From an uncultured Gammaproteobacteria bacterium (GTDB taxonomy: Bacteria > Patescibacteriota > Patescibacteriia > XYB2-FULL-38-15): a stretch of DNA of 64,000 nt. This document shows, piece by piece, positions 25,146 through 61,567 of this stretch. The stretch is from contig OZ246416.1 of assembly GCA_965231095.1 (NCBI GenBank), positions 50,938-114,937 of the forward strand, read 5' to 3'. Under the pieces are notes generated by a model that saw nothing but the letters and a program-made list of their open reading frames with translations, made no database searches and was not told where the DNA came from. Position 1 is the first letter of the stretch; the number at the start of each line of letters is the position of its first letter. Both the position numbers and the translations under genes were made by a program.

Positions 25146-26522
25146 TTAAGCTACTTTGGATTTTATTCTATCAATGGTTTCTTGATCTCGCGCCTTAAGA
25201 TGTTTTTCTCTGGTTTCCCGGAGTTCGCGAAGCTGCTCAGTTATTTTTTGCATGTCCGCGATATTTCCTTGATGTTCCGCAAGGTTACGTTCCATTTGGA
25301 GAATTTCCGTTTGAGTTGTGTAAAGCGTGTCTTCCACACCGCGCGCTCCGCCCAATACCATAATTTCTTCCAATCTTTTTTTACTGGTCAGCGGCTTTAA
25401 TCCTTTTTCCATGGTTTTAGCCATAGGTAAAAGTTTTCCAAGATACTCGGACATTTCCCGGAGTTTTTGGAGATCAACCTCTATTTTAGCGGCTTGCTCG
25501 GGAGTGATAGTTGGTTCCTCGGCCGCTTCCATGGCTTCAATCTTTTCTGGAACCTCAATAACAAGCGCAGTTTTATCATCTTCTTTAGATCTTAAAACTT
25601 TTTTAGCAACACGTTTTCCTGCCGCCTCAACAAGCCGCGCGGAAATTTCCGCTGGCGTTCCGCCTTTTATCATTTCTAACTGAATTTCCTCATCGGTTAG
25701 ATTATCGTGGATACCATCAGAAGTAACAACTGTTAGGTCGCCCGGCTCAAGGTGTTCAATGCCTGTTTGAAATTCACATCCGTTAAGTCCAAGGGCGCTC
25801 TTTACGCCTCGTCGTAAATCTTTGTAAAGAAGGGCTACGGTTTTACCTCTTTCCGGTCCGAATTTTTGAATTATTTCCTCTTTGCTGGTCGCTTGGTCAA
25901 TAAAATCGGCCTCTTCTTTTGTAATGTATTTGTTTTGAACAGCTTCTTCTAGGGCGCCTTGATCTTTCGTTAGTCTTTTAAATTCCTTACCTCCCTTTAA
26001 AACATAAATTCTACTGTCGCCAGTGTGACCGAATACCAAGTCGGCGCCGCCGTCTGGTTGTTCAAGCATTTTTATGATAGAAGCTGTTGTTCCTGCAGGG
26101 GACATTCCCTTTTCCATAATTAATTCTTGGATTTTATCTTGGGGTTGGTCTTTATAGGCGGCTTCAGTAAAGGGGTCGTCTAATTGTTCAAAAAAAAGAT
26201 GGTTGCCTAATTTTATAACTTCTTCTTGAGTTTTTTCTAGGGCTCGTCTAATAGCAGTCTCCCATTTTTTGGCATCGACCCCCTCGGGGACTCGAGCTAG
26301 CTCTTCAGAAGAAATTTTGGCAGCTAATTCACTAGTTTGTTTTCCAGCCAAACCACCGCCCATGCCATCAAAAAGACCAGATAATTCTTTTTGGGCGTCT
26401 ACAAAAGTAGAGTCTTCATTGTCGGGATGGTTTTTTGATTTTTCAGAAGTTTTTGCGATATGGGCCGCAATTTTTTCTATTTCTGGCGCCGCAATTTTTT
26501 CTGCCCTTGAAGTTTGTGGCAT
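25146..26522 (-). CDS. PPM/PP2C-family Ser/Thr protein phosphatase with long C-terminal coiled-coil extension
   Basis: PP2C motifs LFDGMGG, TGDSRIYVL, VVTSDGIHDNL; C-terminal ~200 aa Glu/Lys-rich predicted coiled coil. Confidence 0.65.
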   Translation of the reverse strand: MPQTSRAEKIAAPEIEKIAAHIAKTSEKSKNHPDNEDSTFVDAQKELSGLFDGMGGGLAGKQTSELAAKISSEELARVPEGVDAKKWETAIRRALEKTQEEVIKLGNHLFFEQLDDPFTEAAYKDQPQDKIQELIMEKGMSPAGTTASIIKMLEQPDGGADLVFGHTGDSRIYVLKGGKEFKRLTKDQGALEEAVQNKYITKEEADFIDQATSKEEIIQKFGPERGKTVALLYKDLRRGVKSALGLNGCEFQTGIEHLEPGDLTVVTSDGIHDNLTDEEIQLEMIKGGTPAEISARLVEAAGKRVAKKVLRSKEDDKTALVIEVPEKIEAMEAAEEPTITPEQAAKIEVDLQKLREMSEYLGKLLPMAKTMEKGLKPLTSKKRLEEIMVLGGARGVEDTLYTTQTEILQMERNLAEHQGNIADMQKITEQLRELRETREKHLKARDQETIDRIKSKVA

Positions 26523-26650
26523 ATAAATTAATCAAGAATTATTCTTTTATTTTAACATAAAATCATAGCTTATTTAAGAGAAAAAGTCAACCCTACGTAA
26601 AAAATAAAAAAAAGGGGACCGAAGCGCTTTTTCGCGTCGATCCCATGCGG

Positions 26651-27055
26651 TCACGAGGTTTCCTTGACCTCGTGTATTTTGTCCTCCTTGGTGGCGACAA
26701 ACGACTTTTCTTGTTCACCAGCCACAAAGACGATTTCTAGCGTTTTCCACTCCCCGAGGGGTTCTTCGCGGCCCGTTTTCGGGTCGCGGAACTCAATCCT
26801 CGCATAATGGATGTTCTCTTCGTTCGAAAAATGATGGAGCCCCTGACAGCGTCCTCCATCAAGAGTCCGCTCGCCGCCGTTCACAATGAAGCGGAAAATC
26901 ACGTGGCTGGTGATCCAGTGGTAATTCACATCACCGGTTGCAGCCAAGCGAAGGTAAAGGCAGCCGTTCATGTAGTCGAGGTCAAGCCTCGTGATTCGGT
27001 CCAAGAGTTGCCGATGGAGTCTGCCATCGGCGAAGATACTTTTTACTTCACCCAT
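26651..27055 (-). CDS. GC-rich island A: hypothetical 134-aa protein, no recognisable domain
   Basis: ~58% GC versus ~38% for flanks; strong SD aaaGGAGtacgATG; upstream TTGACA-N17-TAAGAT promoter (27101-27129, minus); hairpin overlapping stop. Confidence 0.55.
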   Translation of the reverse strand: MGEVKSIFADGRLHRQLLDRITRLDLDYMNGCLYLRLAATGDVNYHWITSHVIFRFIVNGGERTLDGGRCQGLHHFSNEENIHYARIEFRDPKTGREEPLGEWKTLEIVFVAGEQEKSFVATKEDKIHEVKETS

Positions 27056-27100
27056 GGCGTACTCCTTTCTTTTGCCACGCGCTCCTTGTGGAGACCTCTT

Positions 27101-27129
27101 ATCTTATAATGATATCATAAATTTGTCAA
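27101..27129 (-). promoter_or_regulatory. sigma70-type promoter of island A (TTGACA-N17-TAAGAT, minus strand)
   Basis: Minus-strand reading cTTGACAaatttatgatatcattaTAAGATaag; contrasts with native extended -10 promoters. Confidence 0.5.
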
Positions 27130-27173
27130 GCCTTGAAGAAAGTAAGGTTTTTTGATAGAATAATTTTACGAGT

Positions 27174-28460
27174 ATGAAAAAATATTTTATTATTTCCTAC
27201 GGCTGCCAAATGAATAAGAGCGATTCCGAGCGAGTGGCGGCGGCGCTGGAAAAAATCGGTTATAAGCCCGCTCGGAGCGAAGCGCAGGCTGATTTGGTTG
27301 TGCTCGTAGCGTGCTCCGTGCGGCAGGCGGCGGTGGATCGGCTTTTTGGGAAAGCAAGAGAGTTGGCCAAACTTAAAACTCATAACTTAAAACTTAAAAC
27401 AGTTTTAACCGGTTGCGTTTTGCCGCAGGACAAGAAAAAATTTATAGGCAAATTTGATTTTATTTTAAATTTAGAAGATATCTCAAAATTAAAAAATCCA
27501 AAATCCAAGATACAAGATACTAAATACAAAATACTAAACACGGGCTATTTGCACCTTCAGCCGCGGCGTACGGAAAAATTTCGCGCTTACGTGCCGATTA
27601 TGACCGGCTGTAATAATTTTTGTTCATACTGCGCCGTGCCTTATGTCCGGGGAAGGGAAGCAAGCCGCCCAGCCGCCGAAGTCCTGGCCGAAATAAAAAA
27701 TTTAGCAAAAAATGGCTGCCTTGAGGTGACACTTCTTGGACAAAATGTAAATGCTTATCGGCCGAGTGACGTGAAAATTTTTTCCAAAAAAAATCCATAT
27801 AAGCATCCTTTTGCCGCGCTCTTATGGGAAGCAAATCAAACCCCGGGTATAGAGCGAATATTTTTTACCGCGCCGCATCCGCGCGATATGACGGACGATG
27901 TAATTCGCGCTCTGACTTTACCCAAAATGGTAAATTATTTGCATCTGCCGGTGCAGGCGGGCGATGATGAAGTTTTAAAACGGATGAATCGCCGTTATAC
28001 CGTGGCAGATTATTTAAAATTGGTGGCGAAAATAAAAAAGAAAAAACCGGGCATCGCGCTCGGCACGGATATTATTGTTGGATTTCCCGGCGAAACCAAA
28101 AAGGCGTTTCAAAATACTGTGGAACTTTATAAAAAAGCGGATTTTGATATCGCGTATCTGGCAATATACTCGCCACGGCAGGGGACAGCGGCAGCGAAAT
28201 TAGTTGATGATGTTCCGCGGCAAGAGAAAAAACGTCGGCGGGATATTTTGCAAAAGTTAATGGAGAAAATAGTTTTAGAAAAAAATCAAAAGTATGTCGG
28301 AAAGACAGTGTCAGTTTTGGTTGATAAATTTAAAAACGGCCAGTGTGTCGGTAATTCGCGGGAAATGAAAGTAGTACGATTTTCCGGAAAGAAAAATATG
28401 GTTGGGAAAATTTTTGAGGTTAAAGTTAAAAAAGCGTTGGAGTGGATTTTGGAAGGATAA
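27174..28460 (+). CDS. miaB: radical-SAM methylthiotransferase, MiaB/RimO family, with in-frame low-complexity insert
   Basis: MTTase N-domain YGCQMNKSDSE, radical SAM CNNFCSYC, C-terminal TRAM domain; tandem DNA repeats at 27375-27410 and 27490-27545 encode KLKTHNLKLKT and KSKIQDTKYKILNTG. Confidence 0.8.
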   Translation: MKKYFIISYGCQMNKSDSERVAAALEKIGYKPARSEAQADLVVLVACSVRQAAVDRLFGKARELAKLKTHNLKLKTVLTGCVLPQDKKKFIGKFDFILNLEDISKLKNPKSKIQDTKYKILNTGYLHLQPRRTEKFRAYVPIMTGCNNFCSYCAVPYVRGREASRPAAEVLAEIKNLAKNGCLEVTLLGQNVNAYRPSDVKIFSKKNPYKHPFAALLWEANQTPGIERIFFTAPHPRDMTDDVIRALTLPKMVNYLHLPVQAGDDEVLKRMNRRYTVADYLKLVAKIKKKKPGIALGTDIIVGFPGETKKAFQNTVELYKKADFDIAYLAIYSPRQGTAAAKLVDDVPRQEKKRRRDILQKLMEKIVLEKNQKYVGKTVSVLVDKFKNGQCVGNSREMKVVRFSGKKNMVGKIFEVKVKKALEWILEG

Positions 28461-28495
28461 AAAAAGGGCTCGCTTTGAGGTGGAGCCCGTACCAT
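28461..28495 (-). terminator. intrinsic terminator of island B operon (also downstream of miaB)
   Basis: Minus strand GGGCTCcacctcaaagcGAGCCCttttttt. Confidence 0.6.
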
Positions 28496-28505
28496 TTGCT
28501 GTCCG

Positions 28506-28754
28506 CTAGCCGATCCTTTGGACGACTTTGACATCGTGGATCTTCTGGACGTCGAACCAGTGAGTTGCTTCGCAGAGCGGTTTGTGGGGTTGATCGTACC
28601 CGCAGGGCAAGAGTTGGAAGATGTGACCATGGACCGTGATCACCTCGCCGATAAAAGCGTCCCATGGGTCGACCCACAATTGTTTTCCCTCTTTAGCCGT
28701 CTTCACAAAAGAGATCAACTTGCCGAGGTACCTTTCGGCCGATGCTTCAGCCAT
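28506..28754 (-). CDS. GC-rich island B gene 3: 83-aa soluble His/Cys-containing protein (hypothetical)
   Basis: MAEASAERYLGK...ITVHGHIFQLLPCGYDQPHKPLCEATHW; SD GAGGAGGAGG; start overlaps stop of upstream gene (gATGgcTGA). Confidence 0.55.
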   Translation of the reverse strand: MAEASAERYLGKLISFVKTAKEGKQLWVDPWDAFIGEVITVHGHIFQLLPCGYDQPHKPLCEATHWFDVQKIHDVKVVQRIG

Positions 28755-28980
28755 CGTCTTCCTCCTCCTCTTCTTCGCAGTTTTTCTTGCGGGCGCGGCG
28801 GAGAGATTCAGCCACGCAAATGACAAGGACGACGGTCATGCCGACAAGCACGGCGATCATGTAGGCCTTTCGCCAGAAGGTCAGTCCCTCGGCGGGAAGA
28901 ACCACAATGACGCCGATCACGCAGAGAATCGCGAGTAGGGCGAAGAACAGAGCGCGTAGCACGCTCCAGAGTTGTTTCAT
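28747..28980 (-). CDS. GC-rich island B gene 2: 77-aa two-TM membrane protein with poly-Glu/Asp C-terminal tail (holin-like topology)
   Basis: MKQLWSVLRALFFALLAILCVIGVIVVLPAEGLTFWRKAYMIAVLVGMTVVLVICVAESLRRARKKNCEEEEEEDDG; SD GGGGGGAG; ATGA start/stop overlap with gene 1. Confidence 0.55.
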   Translation of the reverse strand: MKQLWSVLRALFFALLAILCVIGVIVVLPAEGLTFWRKAYMIAVLVGMTVVLVICVAESLRRARKKNCEEEEEEDDG

Positions 28981-29210
28981 GGGCGTGACTCCCCCCAACG
29001 CCGCCGGGCGAAAAGCGATGCCACCGAGGTGCCGACAACCGAAAGAGCAATCCCGACGAAGCATCCAAGGATCACTTCCGTCTTCAGCTCTCCGAAGAGG
29101 TTGGTATGCGCCGCCAGGGGAATCGCCGCGGCCAGGGTGCATCCGATCAGGGCGAAGACGAGCAGACAACGGCCCGTCCTATCCTCACGTCGCGATTCTT
29201 CAAGAGTCAT
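28977..29210 (-). CDS. GC-rich island B gene 1: 77-aa two-TM membrane protein (holin/antiholin-like topology)
   Basis: MTLEESRREDRTGRCLLVFALIGCTLAAAIPLAAHTNLFGELKTEVILGCFVGIALSVVGTSVASLFARRRWGESRP; SD GGAGGAAG 2 nt before ATG. Confidence 0.55.
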   Translation of the reverse strand: MTLEESRREDRTGRCLLVFALIGCTLAAAIPLAAHTNLFGELKTEVILGCFVGIALSVVGTSVASLFARRRWGESRP

Positions 29211-29248
29211 GGCTTCCTCCTTTGCCACTTATAAGTTAATATAAAAAG

Positions 29249-38724: not shown

Positions 38725-38940
38725 CTACTTGGTCGCTGGTGGTGTTACGGCGTCGCCGTGATGGACGGGACAATTGGGGTCGTCTCGCTTAATCACATTC
38801 AGCTTTATCCCCATGCCAGTGCGCAAATGTCCGCAGGTGCATCTTGGGTCTACTCTGCCCAATCCGAAGCACGAGCAAACGGCAAAGTTGCAGTCGTCAT
38901 AGAATACGGCGCCGCACTTGTCACACCGGAATTCATGCAT
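38725..38940 (-). CDS. GC-rich island G: 71-aa Cys-rich putative metal-binding protein
   Basis: MHEFRCDKCGAVFYDDCNFAVCSCFGLGRVDPRCTCGHLRTG...NCPVHHGD (8 Cys, 4 His); SD GGAGG 7 nt before ATG; hairpin tgggggagtacttgcggaagcacgccccca at 38691-38722. Confidence 0.5.
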   Translation of the reverse strand: MHEFRCDKCGAVFYDDCNFAVCSCFGLGRVDPRCTCGHLRTGMGIKLNVIKRDDPNCPVHHGDAVTPPATK

Positions 38941-42717: not shown

Positions 42718-43632
42718 ATGGCGAAGTATGAAAAGCTGAACCTGGGTCAGATTGAAGCGCTCGTGAACATCTTGGGTGGCATGGAGGTCGTGAAGAAGAT
42801 TCTTCGCGGGACGAAGAAGCCTCTTCCCCCGGACAAAGGCTTTCGGTCCCTTTTTGACAACTACGGCCGCCGCGTTGCGCCTCCTACGATGAGCGACAAG
42901 GGAGGAGCCGATCCGGAGGTGTGTTTGGCTCAGCCGGCGATGCATCTTCCACCGGGACCGGGAACAAGGTTCAAGGGTTTGTGCGAACGCCTTGGCTGGC
43001 AGAACCAGATGACTCCGGAAGAATTTCGCGCGCGGGTGGACAAGGCGGTAGAGAAGATCAACTTCGGCAGCATCAGAGAAGAGGTGAGGGGAATTTTGGG
43101 TGGTGTGTATCTGCCCTTTGGTCTTCCGCAGGTGACCTCCAGCGATTGCGGGGAGATCCTTGACGAACTCGGCTTGATCAATGCGGTTGAGCGTGTTTTC
43201 AAGGAAAGATTTCCCGAGGGGCAGTTTTTCGGACAAGAAAAATCCCTGAAGGGAGGCTTCCGCTTGATCGAAGGAAGTCGCCACGAGCGATTTTTGGAGG
43301 CCTTGACAAAGGAGCCGGTCGTTGCCATCTACTTCCCATTGGCGCTCCAAGGGTATTTGCCCGATAAGGCCGTCGAGCAGATGGAGAGCCTGCCGGAAGA
43401 GTTTCTGCTTTCCGGTGTGGTTGATACAGCGGCGGCGATCATGATGTATCCGGAAGTTCTACTTCGGGACACCTGCGTGCCGCAGCTCGGATGTTCGGCA
43501 GTGAAGCGCTGGGTGACCGGAGTTTCCTCATTCGATGTCAGTGACGGCAGCGACAAGATCACGCTCGCCTTCGGGGGGTGCCAGATCTTTGGGCGCGGCA
43601 AGTTTACTTCCGGCCTCACCGTCATCGCGTAG
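42718..43632 (+). CDS. GC-rich island C: hypothetical 304-aa protein, no recognisable domain
   Basis: ~60% GC; SD GGAAGGAGA 6 nt before ATG; TTGACT promoter-like element at 42605; downstream terminator 43695-43728. Confidence 0.6.
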   Translation: MAKYEKLNLGQIEALVNILGGMEVVKKILRGTKKPLPPDKGFRSLFDNYGRRVAPPTMSDKGGADPEVCLAQPAMHLPPGPGTRFKGLCERLGWQNQMTPEEFRARVDKAVEKINFGSIREEVRGILGGVYLPFGLPQVTSSDCGEILDELGLINAVERVFKERFPEGQFFGQEKSLKGGFRLIEGSRHERFLEALTKEPVVAIYFPLALQGYLPDKAVEQMESLPEEFLLSGVVDTAAAIMMYPEVLLRDTCVPQLGCSAVKRWVTGVSSFDVSDGSDKITLAFGGCQIFGRGKFTSGLTVIA

Positions 43633-49706: not shown

Positions 49707-50297
49707 TTACGGGGAAGTGATGTCCTTCGTCCCGTCGTAGGGATCGCCGGAGTCGGCGGAATCGTCGGCGGGCGGCGCAGCGGGCGAGACGACCTCGACT
49801 TCCTCCTCGATGTCCTCGGCCACCACGACCGTGGTTTCCGGCGCGTCTTCGAGGATCTCGACCATCTTCATCGCCTGGCGCACACAGGCCGACAGCTCGG
49901 CGGTGGAGAAGGCGTAGGAGAGTTGTTCGAAGGTAACCCGGCGTCCTGGTTCCGTGTCCTTCGACATCCAGTGTTCGATCAGCTTGGCGAGATCATCGTC
50001 GGAGACGCGTTTCAGGATCTCCTCGATCGCGGATTTTGCGCCGTTCTCGATACCGCCGAGCATCGCCTGGCGCATGATGGGCACGGTGTCTTTCTTGTCA
50101 CCGGGCCAGATCCCGAGTAGATCGCCAACGATCTTCTCGAAGGTGTGCACTTGGGCAATGTGAGCCAGGCCGCTGGCCCGGCTCAAATTGATGTGGTGCA
50201 AGATGATCCAGATGTTCAGGACGCCGAGATCCACGAAGTGCTGGAGCATCGCCGCTAGCGTCAACTTCTTGTCTCTTTCCTTCTTGGATTCCGCCAT
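49707..50297 (-). CDS. GC-rich island D gene 2: hypothetical ~197-aa protein (helical, acidic C-terminal tail)
   Basis: MAESKKERDKKLTLAAMLQHFVDLGVLNIWIILHH...; ~62% GC; minus-strand promoter cTTGACAa-N17-TAAGGT at 50342-50370; 5' UTR palindrome CTCCGATTAATCGGAG. Confidence 0.55.
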   Translation of the reverse strand: MAESKKERDKKLTLAAMLQHFVDLGVLNIWIILHHINLSRASGLAHIAQVHTFEKIVGDLLGIWPGDKKDTVPIMRQAMLGGIENGAKSAIEEILKRVSDDDLAKLIEHWMSKDTEPGRRVTFEQLSYAFSTAELSACVRQAMKMVEILEDAPETTVVVAEDIEEEVEVVSPAAPPADDSADSGDPYDGTKDITSP

Positions 50298-50382
50298 TGT
50301 CTTCCACTCGCTCCGATTAATCGGAGTCCTTTCTATCCGCACCTTAGTTTAAAAAATAAAATTTGTCAAGATAAAAAAAGAG

Positions 50383-50608: not shown

Positions 50609-50881
50609 TCAGGGTCGGGGGCAGTTCCGGACGACATGCATTCGCTTGCGCCTGGCGCGGGCGACGCCGTCCGTGTACTTCTTGCCCTTGCGTTCGGCGA
50701 AAGTGTGCATCGAGCAGTAGTGCCCGGTATTCCCGCTACGGAGAATCGTTCCACAGTCGGGTTCCTGGCATCGCCGCGGCTTGCCATCGTCGGTGCTCCG
50801 ACCGCTGTCGTGCACGTCGCCGAGCGAATTGGCGCCGACCGTGCCGGTACCCTGATCCATTCCGAGCGCGCTCCAGTCCAT
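50609..50881 (-). CDS. GC-rich island D gene 1: 90-aa Cys/His-cluster (zinc-ribbon-like) protein, possibly nucleic-acid binding
   Basis: ...RRCQEPDCGTILRSGNTGHYCSMHTF...; SD GGAGGAGGAAGG before ATG; 5' UTR hairpin ccttgcgt..acgcaagg. Confidence 0.55.
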   Translation of the reverse strand: MDWSALGMDQGTGTVGANSLGDVHDSGRSTDDGKPRRCQEPDCGTILRSGNTGHYCSMHTFAERKGKKYTDGVARARRKRMHVVRNCPRP

Positions 50882-51004: not shown

Positions 51005-51065
51005 AGAATATAATAAAAAGCTTAATTTGTCAACCCCTTGACAAATTTTAAGATTGTGGTAGAGT
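51005..51065. promoter_or_regulatory. divergent sigma70-type promoter pair with palindromic overlapping -35 boxes (TTGTCAAccccTTGACAA)
   Basis: Plus: TTGACA(51038-43)-N16-TAGAGT(51060-65). Minus: TTGACA-N16-TATTCT (plus agaata 51005-10). Perfect inverted repeat ttgtcaa/ttgacaa around cccc. Confidence 0.55.
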
Positions 51066-51071
51066 GTTCTG

Positions 51072-51388
51072 TAGGGTAATGGGGAGTCCTGTTTGGTTGA
51101 TGCCGGCAGCGCACCGGCGTCGTGGGCAGTCATTTTTTGCTTCACTCTGAATCCGGAACCCTTGGCTGGTGAACAGCGCGTTGTAGCGCGGCTGGCCTTG
51201 TGGCGAAGGACCCACGGAGTGGCCCGACAGGAACCCGGTTCGCGAGCTGCCCGTTAAGCAGACGTGGGCTGAAATCTCCCCAGCGCATCTGATCCTCCAA
51301 GTCCGCTTCGGCGGGCACGGAGGTCACCATTCTTTGCACACCGCTGCATTTCGCGTTGTGCCCGTCGGTCGAACACCCTGTTCGACCG
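51072..51388 (+). ncRNA. candidate ~320-nt GC-rich structured non-coding RNA of unknown class, driven by the island D plus-strand promoter and ending in a strong intrinsic terminator
   Basis: No plus-strand ORF with SD; CCGCuucgGCGG UUCG tetraloop hairpin, several GC stems; terminator GTCGGTCGAACaccctGTTCGACCGACtctttttt at 51354-51388. Confidence 0.45.
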
Positions 51389-51394
51389 ACTCTT

Positions 51395-51418
51395 TTTTAT
51401 ATAAAAAACCGGCCTTGC
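51395..51418 (-). terminator. intrinsic terminator of prfA
   Basis: Minus strand CCGGCCgcaaGGCCGGtttttt, preceded by cccgactaaagtcggg hairpin. Confidence 0.6.
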
Positions 51419-60599: not shown

Positions 60600-60833
60600 A
60601 TGTGTTTTGGTGTCCCTTGTAAAATTGAAAAAGTAAATAAAAATAAAGCCACCATAAAAAATGGCGGCAAAGTTTTTGATATAGACACCTCGCTCTTGCC
60701 AAAAATAAAAAAAAATGATTGGATATTGGTGCAGGGCAATATTGGAATGAAGCAAATATCGGAGGATGAAGCAAAAAGTTGCCTTGCCGTTTTGGACGAA
60801 TTCCAAAGTAAAGAGGGGAAGGGAGGACTGTGA
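60600..60833 (+). CDS. hypC: [NiFe]-hydrogenase maturation chaperone HypC/HupF family
   Basis: N-terminal MCFGVPCKI (MCxxxP signature), ~77 aa. Confidence 0.75.
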   Translation: MCFGVPCKIEKVNKNKATIKNGGKVFDIDTSLLPKIKKNDWILVQGNIGMKQISEDEAKSCLAVLDEFQSKEGKGGL

Positions 60834-61567
60834 TGGAGAGAACATACGCAAGAGCGGCGCGCTACGCGCTCTATCCGAACATGCTCGGGCTTTGCGGGCC
60901 GCGCGGAAGGGGCAAGGAAAAACTCTACGAGTATTTGACTCTCAAGACCAAGGTGGACGACCAAGAGGCGAGGGAATTACTCGAGCAATTCACCGCGGCC
61001 ACGGCCTACATGAAACTGATTGCCGCGGCAAACGAGATTCCGGACTGGCTGGATCCGAGGGTGGTTGACGCCTACTGGATTGGAAACGACCTTTTGAACC
61101 TTGTCCGCGCCGAGGATCTGAAGGAATTGATCCATGGTCTCGTTCTAGCAGGAAAGCTTGCCGAGTCCGCGGCGGAAGAAGCGATTGCCCGTGTCCACCG
61201 CGATCATCGTCCGCACCATAGCTTCCATGTTTTTGTGATCGGCGGACTTTCCGGCCAAGTGGAGCGCGGGTCAATCGGCTGGGAACTTTGCCGTATCGGC
61301 TGGGGGACGGTCGCCCGCGTCAAGCATGACGGCAACCTCACAGTTTTGGCAGAGTCTTTGTTGCAAAAGGGCGGCAAGATTTTTCCTGAACTTGAGGGAG
61401 TGGAAAGAGAGCGGCTCATCAGGCGCGACCGGGAACTTTTCCCACGCGTTTCCTCTGGTGACCTCGTTGCTTTCCACTGGGGCAGAGTGGTTGAAATTAT
61501 TGACCACGACGCAGCACGGCGGCTGGACTATTGGACCGAACGGACGCTCCGGCACTGCAGACTGTAG
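60833..61567 (+). CDS. GC-rich island F: hypothetical 244-aa protein inserted in the hydrogenase cluster directly after hypC
   Basis: ~60% GC; SD AAGGGAGG; start overlaps hypC stop (gtgATGg); terminator 61593-61625 AGACTAGCttttaggGGCTAGTCttttttt. Confidence 0.55.
   Translation: MERTYARAARYALYPNMLGLCGPRGRGKEKLYEYLTLKTKVDDQEARELLEQFTAATAYMKLIAAANEIPDWLDPRVVDAYWIGNDLLNLVRAEDLKELIHGLVLAGKLAESAAEEAIARVHRDHRPHHSFHVFVIGGLSGQVERGSIGWELCRIGWGTVARVKHDGNLTVLAESLLQKGGKIFPELEGVERERLIRRDRELFPRVSSGDLVAFHWGRVVEIIDHDAARRLDYWTERTLRHCRL

What the first reader, a model, noticed from the sequence alone, without database searches (positions are those of the whole stretch)
26630..27130. Island A: single GC-rich 134-aa ORF between a PP2C phosphatase and miaB
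Minus-strand TTGACA-N17-TAAGAT promoter, GGAG SD, hairpin over the stop codon. Protein of unknown fold (contains NYHWITSHVIFRFIVNGGERTLDGGRCQGLHHF). Same -10 flavour (TAAGAT/TAAGGT) as islands D and E, suggesting a common sigma or donor.
Basis: seen in the sequence. Interest (0 to 1): 0.5.

Follow-up and report, generated by a model that had tools for sequence, protein, structure and literature searches.

The report
Conserved orphan gene with structured mRNA
The GC-rich 134-codon ORF is a real protein-coding gene, but it is an old, vertically inherited gene found only in one small group of Patescibacteria (CPR bacteria), not a recently imported island; it encodes a small β-sandwich protein of unknown function from an unusually structured mRNA.

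The parts
27101..27129 (-). Sigma-70-type promoter: -35 TTGACA (27129-27124), 17-nt spacer containing the palindrome ATGATATCAT, -10 TAAGAT (27106-27101)
   Evidence: Exact motif found twice in the window against 0.01 expected. Independent scan gives 10/12. TTGACAAAT and TAAnrT are conserved in 13 distinct orthologs, including members at 31-42% protein identity.
27056..27100 (-). 5' UTR with SD AAAGGAG (27062-27068); the window copy carries an insertion of about 20 nt relative to the orthologs, with a second GGAG
   Evidence: Alignments of the upstream regions: GTTCCC.GAAAGGAG-N6-8-ATG is conserved.
26651..27055 (-). CDS, 134 aa, 15.5 kDa, pI about 6, no hydrophobic segment. Predicted two-helix, seven-strand beta-sandwich with a disordered but invariant N-terminal motif (IFADGRLHRQxLDRI) and a disordered Lys/Glu-rich tail
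   Evidence: ORF. dN/dS 0.10-0.37. AF2 pLDDT 84.8, pTM 0.77. Alignments A1 and A2. Hydropathy maximum 0.49.
27008..27033 (-). Tentative CDS-internal RNA hairpin GCCGAUGG-N6-CCAUCGGC over codons 9-16 (the invariant FADGRLHRQ motif)
   Evidence: RNAalifold and the scan. Synonymous sites in the stem arms are frozen (GCC 9/9, CAT 9/9, CGG 10/12) while loop codons vary. No covariation, and not in register in the three most distant orthologs.
26761..26792 (-). Tentative CDS-internal hairpin GUUCCGCGACCCG-AAAA-CGGGCCGCGAAGAAC over codons 88-99 (the EFRDPxTGRE motif)
   Evidence: MFE fold. The six-fold Arg codons 90 and 96 are always CGC (11/11 and 6/6). 72% of cells are paired and only 2 of 11 pairs are compensatory.
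26652..26674 (-). Conserved RNA hairpin over the last 7 codons and the stop codon (stop TGA = 26651-26653)
   Evidence: 87% of cells paired and 4 of 7 pairs with compensatory changes, against 31-50% paired in the slid controls. Kept in L020 although the reading frame over the 3' arm differs, and in L019 with a different tail peptide. Tail residues follow the pairing rule: Val..Thr 12, Ile..Ile 8, Val..Ile 1, Ile..Thr 0.
26600..26644 (-). Intrinsic terminator: stem-loop GGGAUCGACGCG-AAAAAG-CGCUUCGGUCCC (26615-26644) followed by a U-run, starting 6 nt after the stop
   Evidence: Present in all orthologs, 1-10 nt after the stop. 87.6% of cells paired and 6 of 11 pairs compensatory.
26562..26590 (-). 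Separate promoter of the downstream PP2C gene (TTGACT-17-TATGAT)
   Evidence: Scan gives 10/12. TTGACT directly after the terminator is conserved in all orthologs.
25146..26522 (-). Co-distributed neighbour: PPM/PP2C Ser/Thr phosphatase (458 aa) with intact NEDS, DGMGG, GDSR and SDG..D motifs and a C-terminal extension of about 130 aa
   Evidence: Pfam above the gathering score. Alignment to PstP. The ortholog set lies on the same contigs as orf134.

Best explanation
orf134 is a vertically inherited orphan gene restricted to one narrow Patescibacteria lineage (some relatives are labelled Candidatus Falkowbacteria). It is transcribed on its own from a strongly conserved sigma-70-type promoter. 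The transcript is a roughly 480-nt monocistronic, GC-rich and unusually structured mRNA that ends in two tandem hairpins: one embedded in the last codons and stop codon, then an intrinsic terminator. The product is a soluble cytoplasmic 15-kDa beta-sandwich protein. It has no conserved catalytic residues and carries an invariant, disordered N-terminal peptide. It most likely acts as a non-enzymatic binding or adaptor module. Its most plausible partner is the PPM/PP2C phosphatase encoded immediately downstream, as a regulator, targeting subunit or substrate. The elevated GC content is a maintained, gene-specific property, at least partly explained by selection for mRNA secondary structure, and not a trace of a foreign donor. 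Shown: the gene is real and coding, it is native and syntenic, the promoter, SD and terminator are conserved, the 3' hairpins covary, and the CDS has excess folding stability. Inferred: the binding-module role (about 0.5), RNA-structure selection as the cause of the GC bias (about 0.5), and the PP2C partnership (about 0.25).
Against: There are no expression or protein data. The PP2C link rests on synteny in a region where everything (gatB, miaA, miaB, thrS) is collinear, so adjacency is weak evidence. The two genes are separated by a conserved terminator, and PP2C has its own promoter. Pairwise divergences of the two proteins are poorly matched. The N-terminal and middle hairpins lack covariation and are not in register in distant orthologs. 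One ortholog (L019) shows no excess folding. Four other GC-rich ORFs in the window show no excess folding (z from -1.3 to +0.2), so RNA structure cannot be the general cause of the GC-rich codon dialect. The orthologs are not phylogenetically independent. The AF2 model rests on only 16 sequences.
Confidence: 0.6

Rival explanations
1. Recently acquired genomic island: a foreign GC-rich gene from a higher-GC donor, possibly sharing a donor or an alternative sigma factor with the other GC-rich islands.
For: GC 0.52 and GC3 0.63 against about 0.42 in the background. The codon dialect is shared with the other GC-rich ORFs. The same promoter motif occurs at island D.
Against: Orthologs sit at the same locus in every relative examined, down to 31% identity. 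Synonymous divergence equals that of the neighbours. GC3 is held at 0.57-0.66 in all lineages despite near-saturated pS. No homologue exists outside the clade, so there is no candidate donor. There are no tRNAs, integrases or flanking repeats. Island B is likewise conserved. The promoter is of the ordinary sigma-70 type.
Confidence: 0.03
2. Ancient insertion or de novo birth at the base of the clade: the gene arose or was inserted once in the miaB-PP2C spacer of the common ancestor and has been vertical since. The GC-rich dialect reflects its origin or a local mutational bias rather than RNA-level selection.
For: The family is confined to one lineage. The nearest PP2C homologues outside the clade have no orf134-like neighbour. 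Several other GC-rich ORFs share the dialect without excess folding.
Against: With pS of 0.5-0.7, an inherited composition should have relaxed to the local equilibrium seen in the neighbours. Frozen synonymous sites fall in the stem arms, and z-scores are negative in 11 of 12 orthologs. This rival is compatible with the best explanation as to origin and differs only on the cause of the GC bias.
Confidence: 0.2
3. The main functional product is the RNA, a structured riboregulator or dual-function RNA, and the ORF is secondary.
For: Transcript z = -4.7. A covarying hairpin is kept even where the reading frame shifts. The most conserved peptide motifs coincide with hairpins. The promoter and 5' UTR are more conserved than the protein.
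Against: There is clear purifying selection on the protein. Indels are in multiples of three. The SD and ATG are conserved. A confident fold is predicted. There is no Rfam hit. Only the C-terminal hairpin has covariation support.
Confidence: 0.1
4. A binding protein unrelated to PP2C, for example a stress-, ribosome- or envelope-associated small protein, whose position next to PP2C is only inherited gene order.
For: It has its own promoter and terminator and PP2C has a separate promoter. The whole neighbourhood is collinear in the clade. The divergences of the two proteins are poorly matched.
Against: Nothing specific. The only positive pointer to any partner is the co-distribution and adjacency with PP2C.
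Confidence: 0.4
5. A toxin-antitoxin, anti-phage defence or phage-derived small protein.
For: It is a small orphan gene with its own promoter and atypical composition.
Against: No PADLOC or PHROGs hit. No BFVD structural match. It is a single gene without a cognate partner ORF. It holds a fixed chromosomal slot across the clade.
Confidence: 0.03

Closest known systems
Generic Ig-like / FnIII-type beta-sandwich domains (e.g. pullulanase accessory domain 3wdh, S-layer SbsC 2ra1, Atg34 cargo-binding domain 2kzk)
   Different: The scores are at the level of any sandwich compared with any other sandwich. Foldseek TM <= 0.40 and no E <= 1e-3. Sequence identity is 1-13%. orf134 is a stand-alone cytoplasmic protein with two helices and an invariant N-terminal peptide, whereas the hits are mostly extracellular domains of large proteins.
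FHA-domain proteins encoded next to PPM phosphatases (e.g. FhaA/FhaB beside PstP in Mycobacterium; recalled from general knowledge)
   Same: A small beta-sandwich protein adjacent to a PPM/PP2C phosphatase that aligns to PstP. The analogy motivates the partner hypothesis.
Intrinsic (Rho-independent) terminators lying close to the stop codon
   Same: A GC-rich stem followed by a U-run 1-10 nt after the stop, with covariation.
   Different: It is preceded by a second covarying hairpin that lies inside the coding sequence and includes the stop codon. That is not part of the canonical terminator, and its role is unknown.
Lineage-specific hypothetical small proteins of CPR/Patescibacteria genomes
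   Same: No annotation, narrow distribution, small size. Database names are 'hypothetical protein'.
   Different: Here the gene additionally shows a highly conserved promoter and 5' UTR, a maintained GC-rich codon dialect and excess mRNA structure.

Membership tests
Recently acquired genomic island | Atypical base composition relative to the host | tested here: met
   GC 0.523 and GC3 0.63 against 0.438 for the window and a background GC3 of 0.33-0.47.
Recently acquired genomic island | Absent from, or differently placed in, related genomes | tested here: not met
   Same slot in all looked-up relatives at 31-100% identity. pS equals that of the neighbours.
Recently acquired genomic island | Mobility hallmarks: tRNA or att target, integrase or transposase, flanking repeats | tested here: not met
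   The only tRNAs lie at 46-879. The neighbours are thrS, PP2C, miaB and miaA. Only short imperfect chance repeats were found.
Protein-coding gene | Purifying selection on the amino-acid sequence, with a conserved frame, start and SD | tested here: met
   dN/dS 0.10-0.37. The ATG and AAAGGAG are conserved. The ORF is intact in about 25 clusters.
Sigma-70-type promoter | -35 and -10 hexamers at 17 +/- 1 nt, conserved across orthologs | tested here: met
   TTGACA-17-TAAGAT scores 10/12 and is conserved in 13 loci. The transcription start site cannot be tested with these tools.
Intrinsic terminator | GC-rich stem-loop plus U-tract, with the stem maintained by compensatory changes | tested here: met
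   87.6% of cells paired and 6 of 11 pairs with changes on both sides, against 31-50% in the slid controls.
FHA domain | Match to the FHA profile, and an 11-strand sandwich with conserved G-R, S-x-x-H and N-G loops | tested here: not met
Small heat-shock protein / alpha-crystallin domain | HSP20 profile match and a C-terminal I-x-I motif | tested here: not met
PilZ c-di-GMP receptor | PilZ profile match, RxxxR and D/NxSxxG motifs, and a beta-barrel | tested here: not met
Ig-like / FnIII beta-sandwich fold class | Significant structural superposition on members of the class | tested here: inconclusive
Known RNA family (Rfam) | Covariance-model match at the gathering score | tested here: not met
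   No hit at the gathering score. The best hit in a permissive search has E = 0.53.
Anti-phage defence or phage protein | Match to PADLOC or PHROGs profiles, or to viral structures | tested here: not met
PPM/PP2C phosphatase (the neighbour gene, not orf134) | Pfam PP2C match above the gathering score and conserved metal-binding motifs | tested here: met
   PP2C_2 28.8 against 24 and PP2C 24.1 against 20.3. NEDS, DGMGG, GDSR and SDG..D align to PstP.
Operon or functional pair with PP2C | Co-transcription or physical interaction | not testable with these tools
   Adjacency and co-distribution hold, but a terminator and a separate promoter lie between the genes.

The most novel reading that the evidence does not exclude
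orf134 is one member of a lineage-specific set of GC-rich, monocistronic units driven by TTGACAAAT...TAAGRT promoters (islands A and D and the back-to-back pair at about 51 kb). Their transcripts are selected for stable secondary structure and act at the RNA level as well as, or instead of, through their small proteins. That would be a small regulon of dual-function structured RNAs in a reduced CPR genome. The covarying hairpin over the stop codon would couple translation termination to transcription termination, and hence to read-through into the PP2C phosphatase gene.
Probability: 0.1. Interest if true: 0.6.

Novelty: new member of a known kind. Interest (0 to 1): 0.3.

Why it matters
As it stands, this is one more uncharacterised lineage-specific small protein in a CPR genome, which is a common situation. 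Three points give it some value. First, it is a clean example of how a compositional "island" can be an old native gene whose GC-rich codon dialect is actively maintained, which is a caution for composition-based HGT calls in AT-rich genomes. Second, it defines a tiny orphan family with a confident predicted fold that has no close structural relative, co-distributed with an atypical long PPM phosphatase, which gives a testable partner hypothesis. Third, it contains an RNA hairpin inside the coding sequence, across the stop codon, that covaries and leaves a visible Val/Thr against Ile/Ile signature in the protein tail. This is a compact case of RNA-level selection shaping a peptide sequence.

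Tried and rejected
1. Sequence homology: Pfam, NCBIfam, PHROGs, PADLOC, PDB phmmer and profile searches, and a per-member Pfam scan gave nothing beyond noise.
2. P0023, a 1182-aa repeat protein (E = 5.5e-4), was judged a chance match to repeats resembling "VVFIANGGEG". P0022 is a fragment or chimera.
4. The small fn3 protein upstream of a distant PP2C homologue (L022) was tested as a possible analogue or homologue and rejected: hhalign probability 1.8%, and it is membrane-anchored.
5. The antisense ORF 26807-27109(+) as a second gene was rejected. That frame is open in some orthologs but broken in L003, L007, L013 and L018, which is a by-product of avoiding TTA, CTA and TCA codons.
6. Expression-linked codon bias as the cause of the high GC3 was rejected. 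Ribosomal and translation genes have an NNC fraction of 0.36, against 0.61 here.
7. The RNAalifold long-range 5'UTR-3'end pairing was not adopted, because it competes with the covariation-supported terminator.
9. A genome scan with the wide alignment A2 failed for lack of a conserved block. It was repeated with A1.
10. Literature searches for GC-rich orphan genes in Patescibacteria or Falkowbacteria phosphatases found nothing relevant.

Full report
OBSERVATION. Its GC content is 0.523 (GC3 0.63), against 0.438 for the window and about 0.42 in the flanks. It lies between a PPM/PP2C-like gene (25146-26522, minus strand; Pfam PP2C_2 and PP2C above their gathering scores; aligned to M. tuberculosis PstP through the NEDS, DGMGG, GDSR and SDG..D motifs) and miaB (27174-28460, plus strand). 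The promoter TTGACA-N17-TAAGAT is at 27129->27101. The exact motif TTGACA-N17-TAAGRT occurs only twice in 64 kb, against 0.01 expected, and an independent consensus scan scores it 10/12. The SD AAAGGAG sits six nt before the ATG. The hairpin CACGAGGT-N7-ACCTCGTG (26652-26674) spans the last codons and the stop.

IS IT A REAL GENE? Yes. A word-indexed search of 5.8 billion proteins found 16 clusters, and 25 with an alignment query. An exhaustive HMM search of 1.84 billion representatives found only 9. All named members are Patescibacteria, and one is labelled Candidatus Falkowbacteria. Codon-aligned orthologs give dN/dS of 0.10-0.37 with third-position changes dominating. Indels are in frame, and the ATG and SD are conserved. 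AlphaFold2 on the 16-sequence alignment gives pLDDT 84.8 and pTM 0.77: helix 12-20, two strands, helix 45-51, five more strands, with disordered residues 1-10 and 123-134. The protein has no hydrophobic segment (maximum Kyte-Doolittle hydropathy 0.49), is 15.5 kDa and has a pI of about 6, so it is cytoplasmic.

IS IT AN ISLAND? No, not in the sense of a recent acquisition. Every relative whose contig could be read has the gene in the same slot: miaB (divergent), then the ORF, then the PP2C-like gene (same direction), then thrS (convergent), with miaA, gatB, UPF0259 and tmk beyond. This holds for the closer members and for members at only 31-42% identity. Synonymous divergence of the ORF (pS 0.53-0.73) equals that of thrS, miaB, miaA, gatB and PP2C in the same genome pairs (0.46-0.81), so it has been inherited together with them. 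There is no tRNA, integrase or meaningful flanking repeat. The family is extremely narrow: 3 loci among about 185,000 species-representative genomes and 5 among 241 million metagenome records. No donor candidate exists. The neighbouring island B (the miaB-miaA spacer) is likewise GC-elevated and holds conserved small genes in the relatives.

REGULATORY ANATOMY. In 13 distinct orthologous DNAs the upstream region reads cTTGACAAAT-(14 nt)-TAAGAT/TAAGGT/TAATAT/TAAAAT-...GTTCCC.GAAAGGAG-N6-8-ATG. It is better conserved than the protein itself. The -10 element is consistently non-consensus (TAAnrT), and in the closer members the spacer contains a palindrome (A/G)TGATATCAT, which could be an operator (untested). 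Downstream, every ortholog has the terminator stem GGGACCGA...TCGGTCCC plus a U-run, 1-10 nt after the stop. A separate TTGACT-17-TAT(A/G)AT promoter for the PP2C gene follows immediately. The gene is therefore its own transcription unit. The promoter is an ordinary sigma-70 type, like its neighbours, so no special sigma factor is implied. The TTGACAAAT...TAAGRT flavour is shared with island D (50341-50369), and TTGACAAAT also occurs back-to-back at about 51.03 kb. I could not find it in front of island E.

RNA STRUCTURE. On a 12-sequence alignment of the 3' region, the stop-codon hairpin is paired in 87% of cells and 4 of its 7 pairs show compensatory changes. The terminator is paired in 88% and 6 of its 11 pairs are compensatory. 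Sliding the partners by 1-3 columns drops pairing to 31-50%, and 0 of 500 shuffles reach the observed values for four of the five measures; 22 of 500 reach it for further pair types (repeated on the full-length alignment). The hairpin is kept in L020 although the reading frame over its 3' arm differs, and in L019, where the tail peptide differs. It leaves a footprint in the protein: across 21 clusters the tail is E-V-x-x-T-S (G-C pair) 12 times, E-I-x-x-I-S (A-U) 8 times, V..I (G.U) once, and I..T (A x C mismatch) never. So the "conserved" disordered C-terminal peptide is at least partly an RNA constraint.

Two further hairpins lie over the two most conserved peptide motifs: GCCGAUGG-N6-CCAUCGGC on codons 9-16, and a 12-bp stem on codons 88-99. 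In the closer orthologs their stem-arm synonymous positions are frozen (GCC 9/9, CAT 9/9, CGG 10/12; Arg codons 90 and 96 are CGC in 11/11 and 6/6), while loop codons and other Arg codons vary. They lack covariation and are out of register in the three most distant orthologs, so I regard them as tentative.

Globally, the CDS folds more stably than synonymous-codon shuffles. The window copy has z = -4.6, and the orthologs have z = -3.0, -2.0, -1.8, -1.7, -2.4, -1.6, -1.4, -3.1, -3.6, +0.15 and -2.9. Twenty background gene segments of the window give -0.33 +/- 0.67 (Mann-Whitney p = 4e-5, with the caveat that orthologs are not independent). The effect persists without the C-terminal hairpin (z = -3.2). 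The whole transcript has z = -4.7 against dinucleotide shuffles. No Rfam family matches.

THE GC PUZZLE. GC3 is 0.57-0.66 in all orthologs, while the neighbours sit at 0.30-0.48. With pS this high, an inherited donor composition should have decayed, so the bias is maintained. It is not ordinary expression-linked codon bias: the NNC/(NNC+NNT) fraction is 0.61 here, against 0.36 in ribosomal and translation genes and 0.27 in housekeeping genes; the NNG/(NNG+NNA) fraction is 0.42 against 0.18-0.20; and TTA is absent. Selection for stable stems is a plausible contributor for this gene and for island D (z = -4.3). However, four other GC-rich ORFs share the dialect without excess folding, so the general cause remains unexplained. 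The long antisense ORF (26807-27109) is a by-product of this codon usage and is broken in four orthologs.

The only pointer to a partner is the adjacent PPM phosphatase. It is always downstream and co-oriented, and its ortholog group has the same narrow distribution on the same contigs. The nearest outside homologues (<= 32% identity) lie in different contexts without an orf134-like gene. The analogy to FHA proteins beside PstP-type phosphatases is functional only, because FHA membership was tested and failed. The whole region is collinear in the clade and the two genes have separate promoters, so I put the partnership at about 0.25.

VERDICT. What is there is a native orphan gene restricted to a narrow Patescibacteria lineage. 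It encodes a small cytoplasmic beta-sandwich protein and is expressed from a strongly conserved promoter as a structured, GC-rich monocistronic mRNA with a covarying hairpin across its stop codon and a covarying terminator. The function is unknown. The best guess is a non-enzymatic adaptor, possibly working with the neighbouring PP2C phosphatase. This is a new member of a familiar category (uncharacterised lineage-specific small proteins of CPR bacteria) with some instructive RNA-level features, and its interest is modest.

Noticed in passing
window 51025-51400: Back-to-back TTGACAAAT boxes at 51025-51033(-) and 51038-51046(+). The plus-strand one heads a GC-rich stretch of about 330 nt (about 51075-51400) with no convincing ORF, ending in a terminator-like hairpin GGTCGAACACCCTGTTCGACC plus a T-run. 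This is a candidate unannotated ncRNA with no Rfam hit at the gathering score. The minus-strand one probably drives the 90-aa Cys/His-containing ORF 50609-50881(-).
   Followed up: partly
window 49707-50369: Island D is built like island A: an upstream terminator, a TTGACAAAT...TAAGGT promoter, an ORF (likely start ATG at about 50296, MAESKKERDKK...) and its own terminator. GC3 is 0.80, the NNC fraction is 0.81, the CDS folding z is -4.3, and there is no Pfam hit.
   Followed up: partly
window 28461-29248; L001 4064-4303; L005 4001-4511; L004 4264-4539: The GC-rich miaB-miaA spacer (island B; GC 0.56 here and 0.48-0.53 in relatives) holds small genes conserved across the clade. One is an ~80-aa protein 'MAE(A/T)SAE(R/K)YL...HWFD...' (window about 28506-28748, minus strand). 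Another is a two-TM protein with an acidic EEEEEDD tail (about 28747-28975, minus strand). A third is a membrane ORF at 28977-29228(-). Presence varies between genomes.
   Followed up: partly
L005 6001-6495 (P0007; also P0003): Two clusters carry a tandem duplication of the first ~30 residues, so the IFADGxLHRxxLxRI motif occurs twice. At the DNA level the N-terminal hairpin region is duplicated with it.
   Followed up: no
L007 and L010, 3' end of the ortholog: In this sub-lineage the C-terminal tail is frameshifted (…RSLETWKI* instead of …PEVKETS*) although the nucleotides remain similar, and the stop-codon hairpin is largely lost. This is a natural knockout of the hairpin that could be exploited.
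   Followed up: no
window 27107-27123 (promoter spacer): The perfect 10-bp palindrome ATGATATCAT lies between the -35 and -10 elements. It is conserved as (A/G)TGATATCAT in the closer orthologs but not in the distant ones, and could be a repressor operator.
   Followed up: no
window 26710-26725 with 26903-26918: An 11-bp perfect long-range helix inside the CDS (codons 48-51 pairing with codons 111-114). It accounts for part of the excess folding energy in the window copy and is only partly kept in close relatives.
   Followed up: partly
L001 4360-5636: In the Falkowbacteria relative, miaB is called as two abutting ORFs (243 and 181 aa). This is a frameshift or an assembly error.
   Followed up: no
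L003 7990-9756: ThrRS of this genome is only 65-67% identical to those of the other clade members, which are 87-93% identical to each other, although its neighbours are not unusually divergent. This may be a replacement of thrS.
   Followed up: no
window 38725-38940 (-), 42718-43632 (+), 60833-61567 (+): Three further ORFs use the same GC-rich codon dialect: a 71-aa Cys-rich protein, a 304-aa orphan, and a DUF6390 protein (E = 1.8e-40). None shows excess mRNA folding (z from -1.2 to +0.2).
   Followed up: partly
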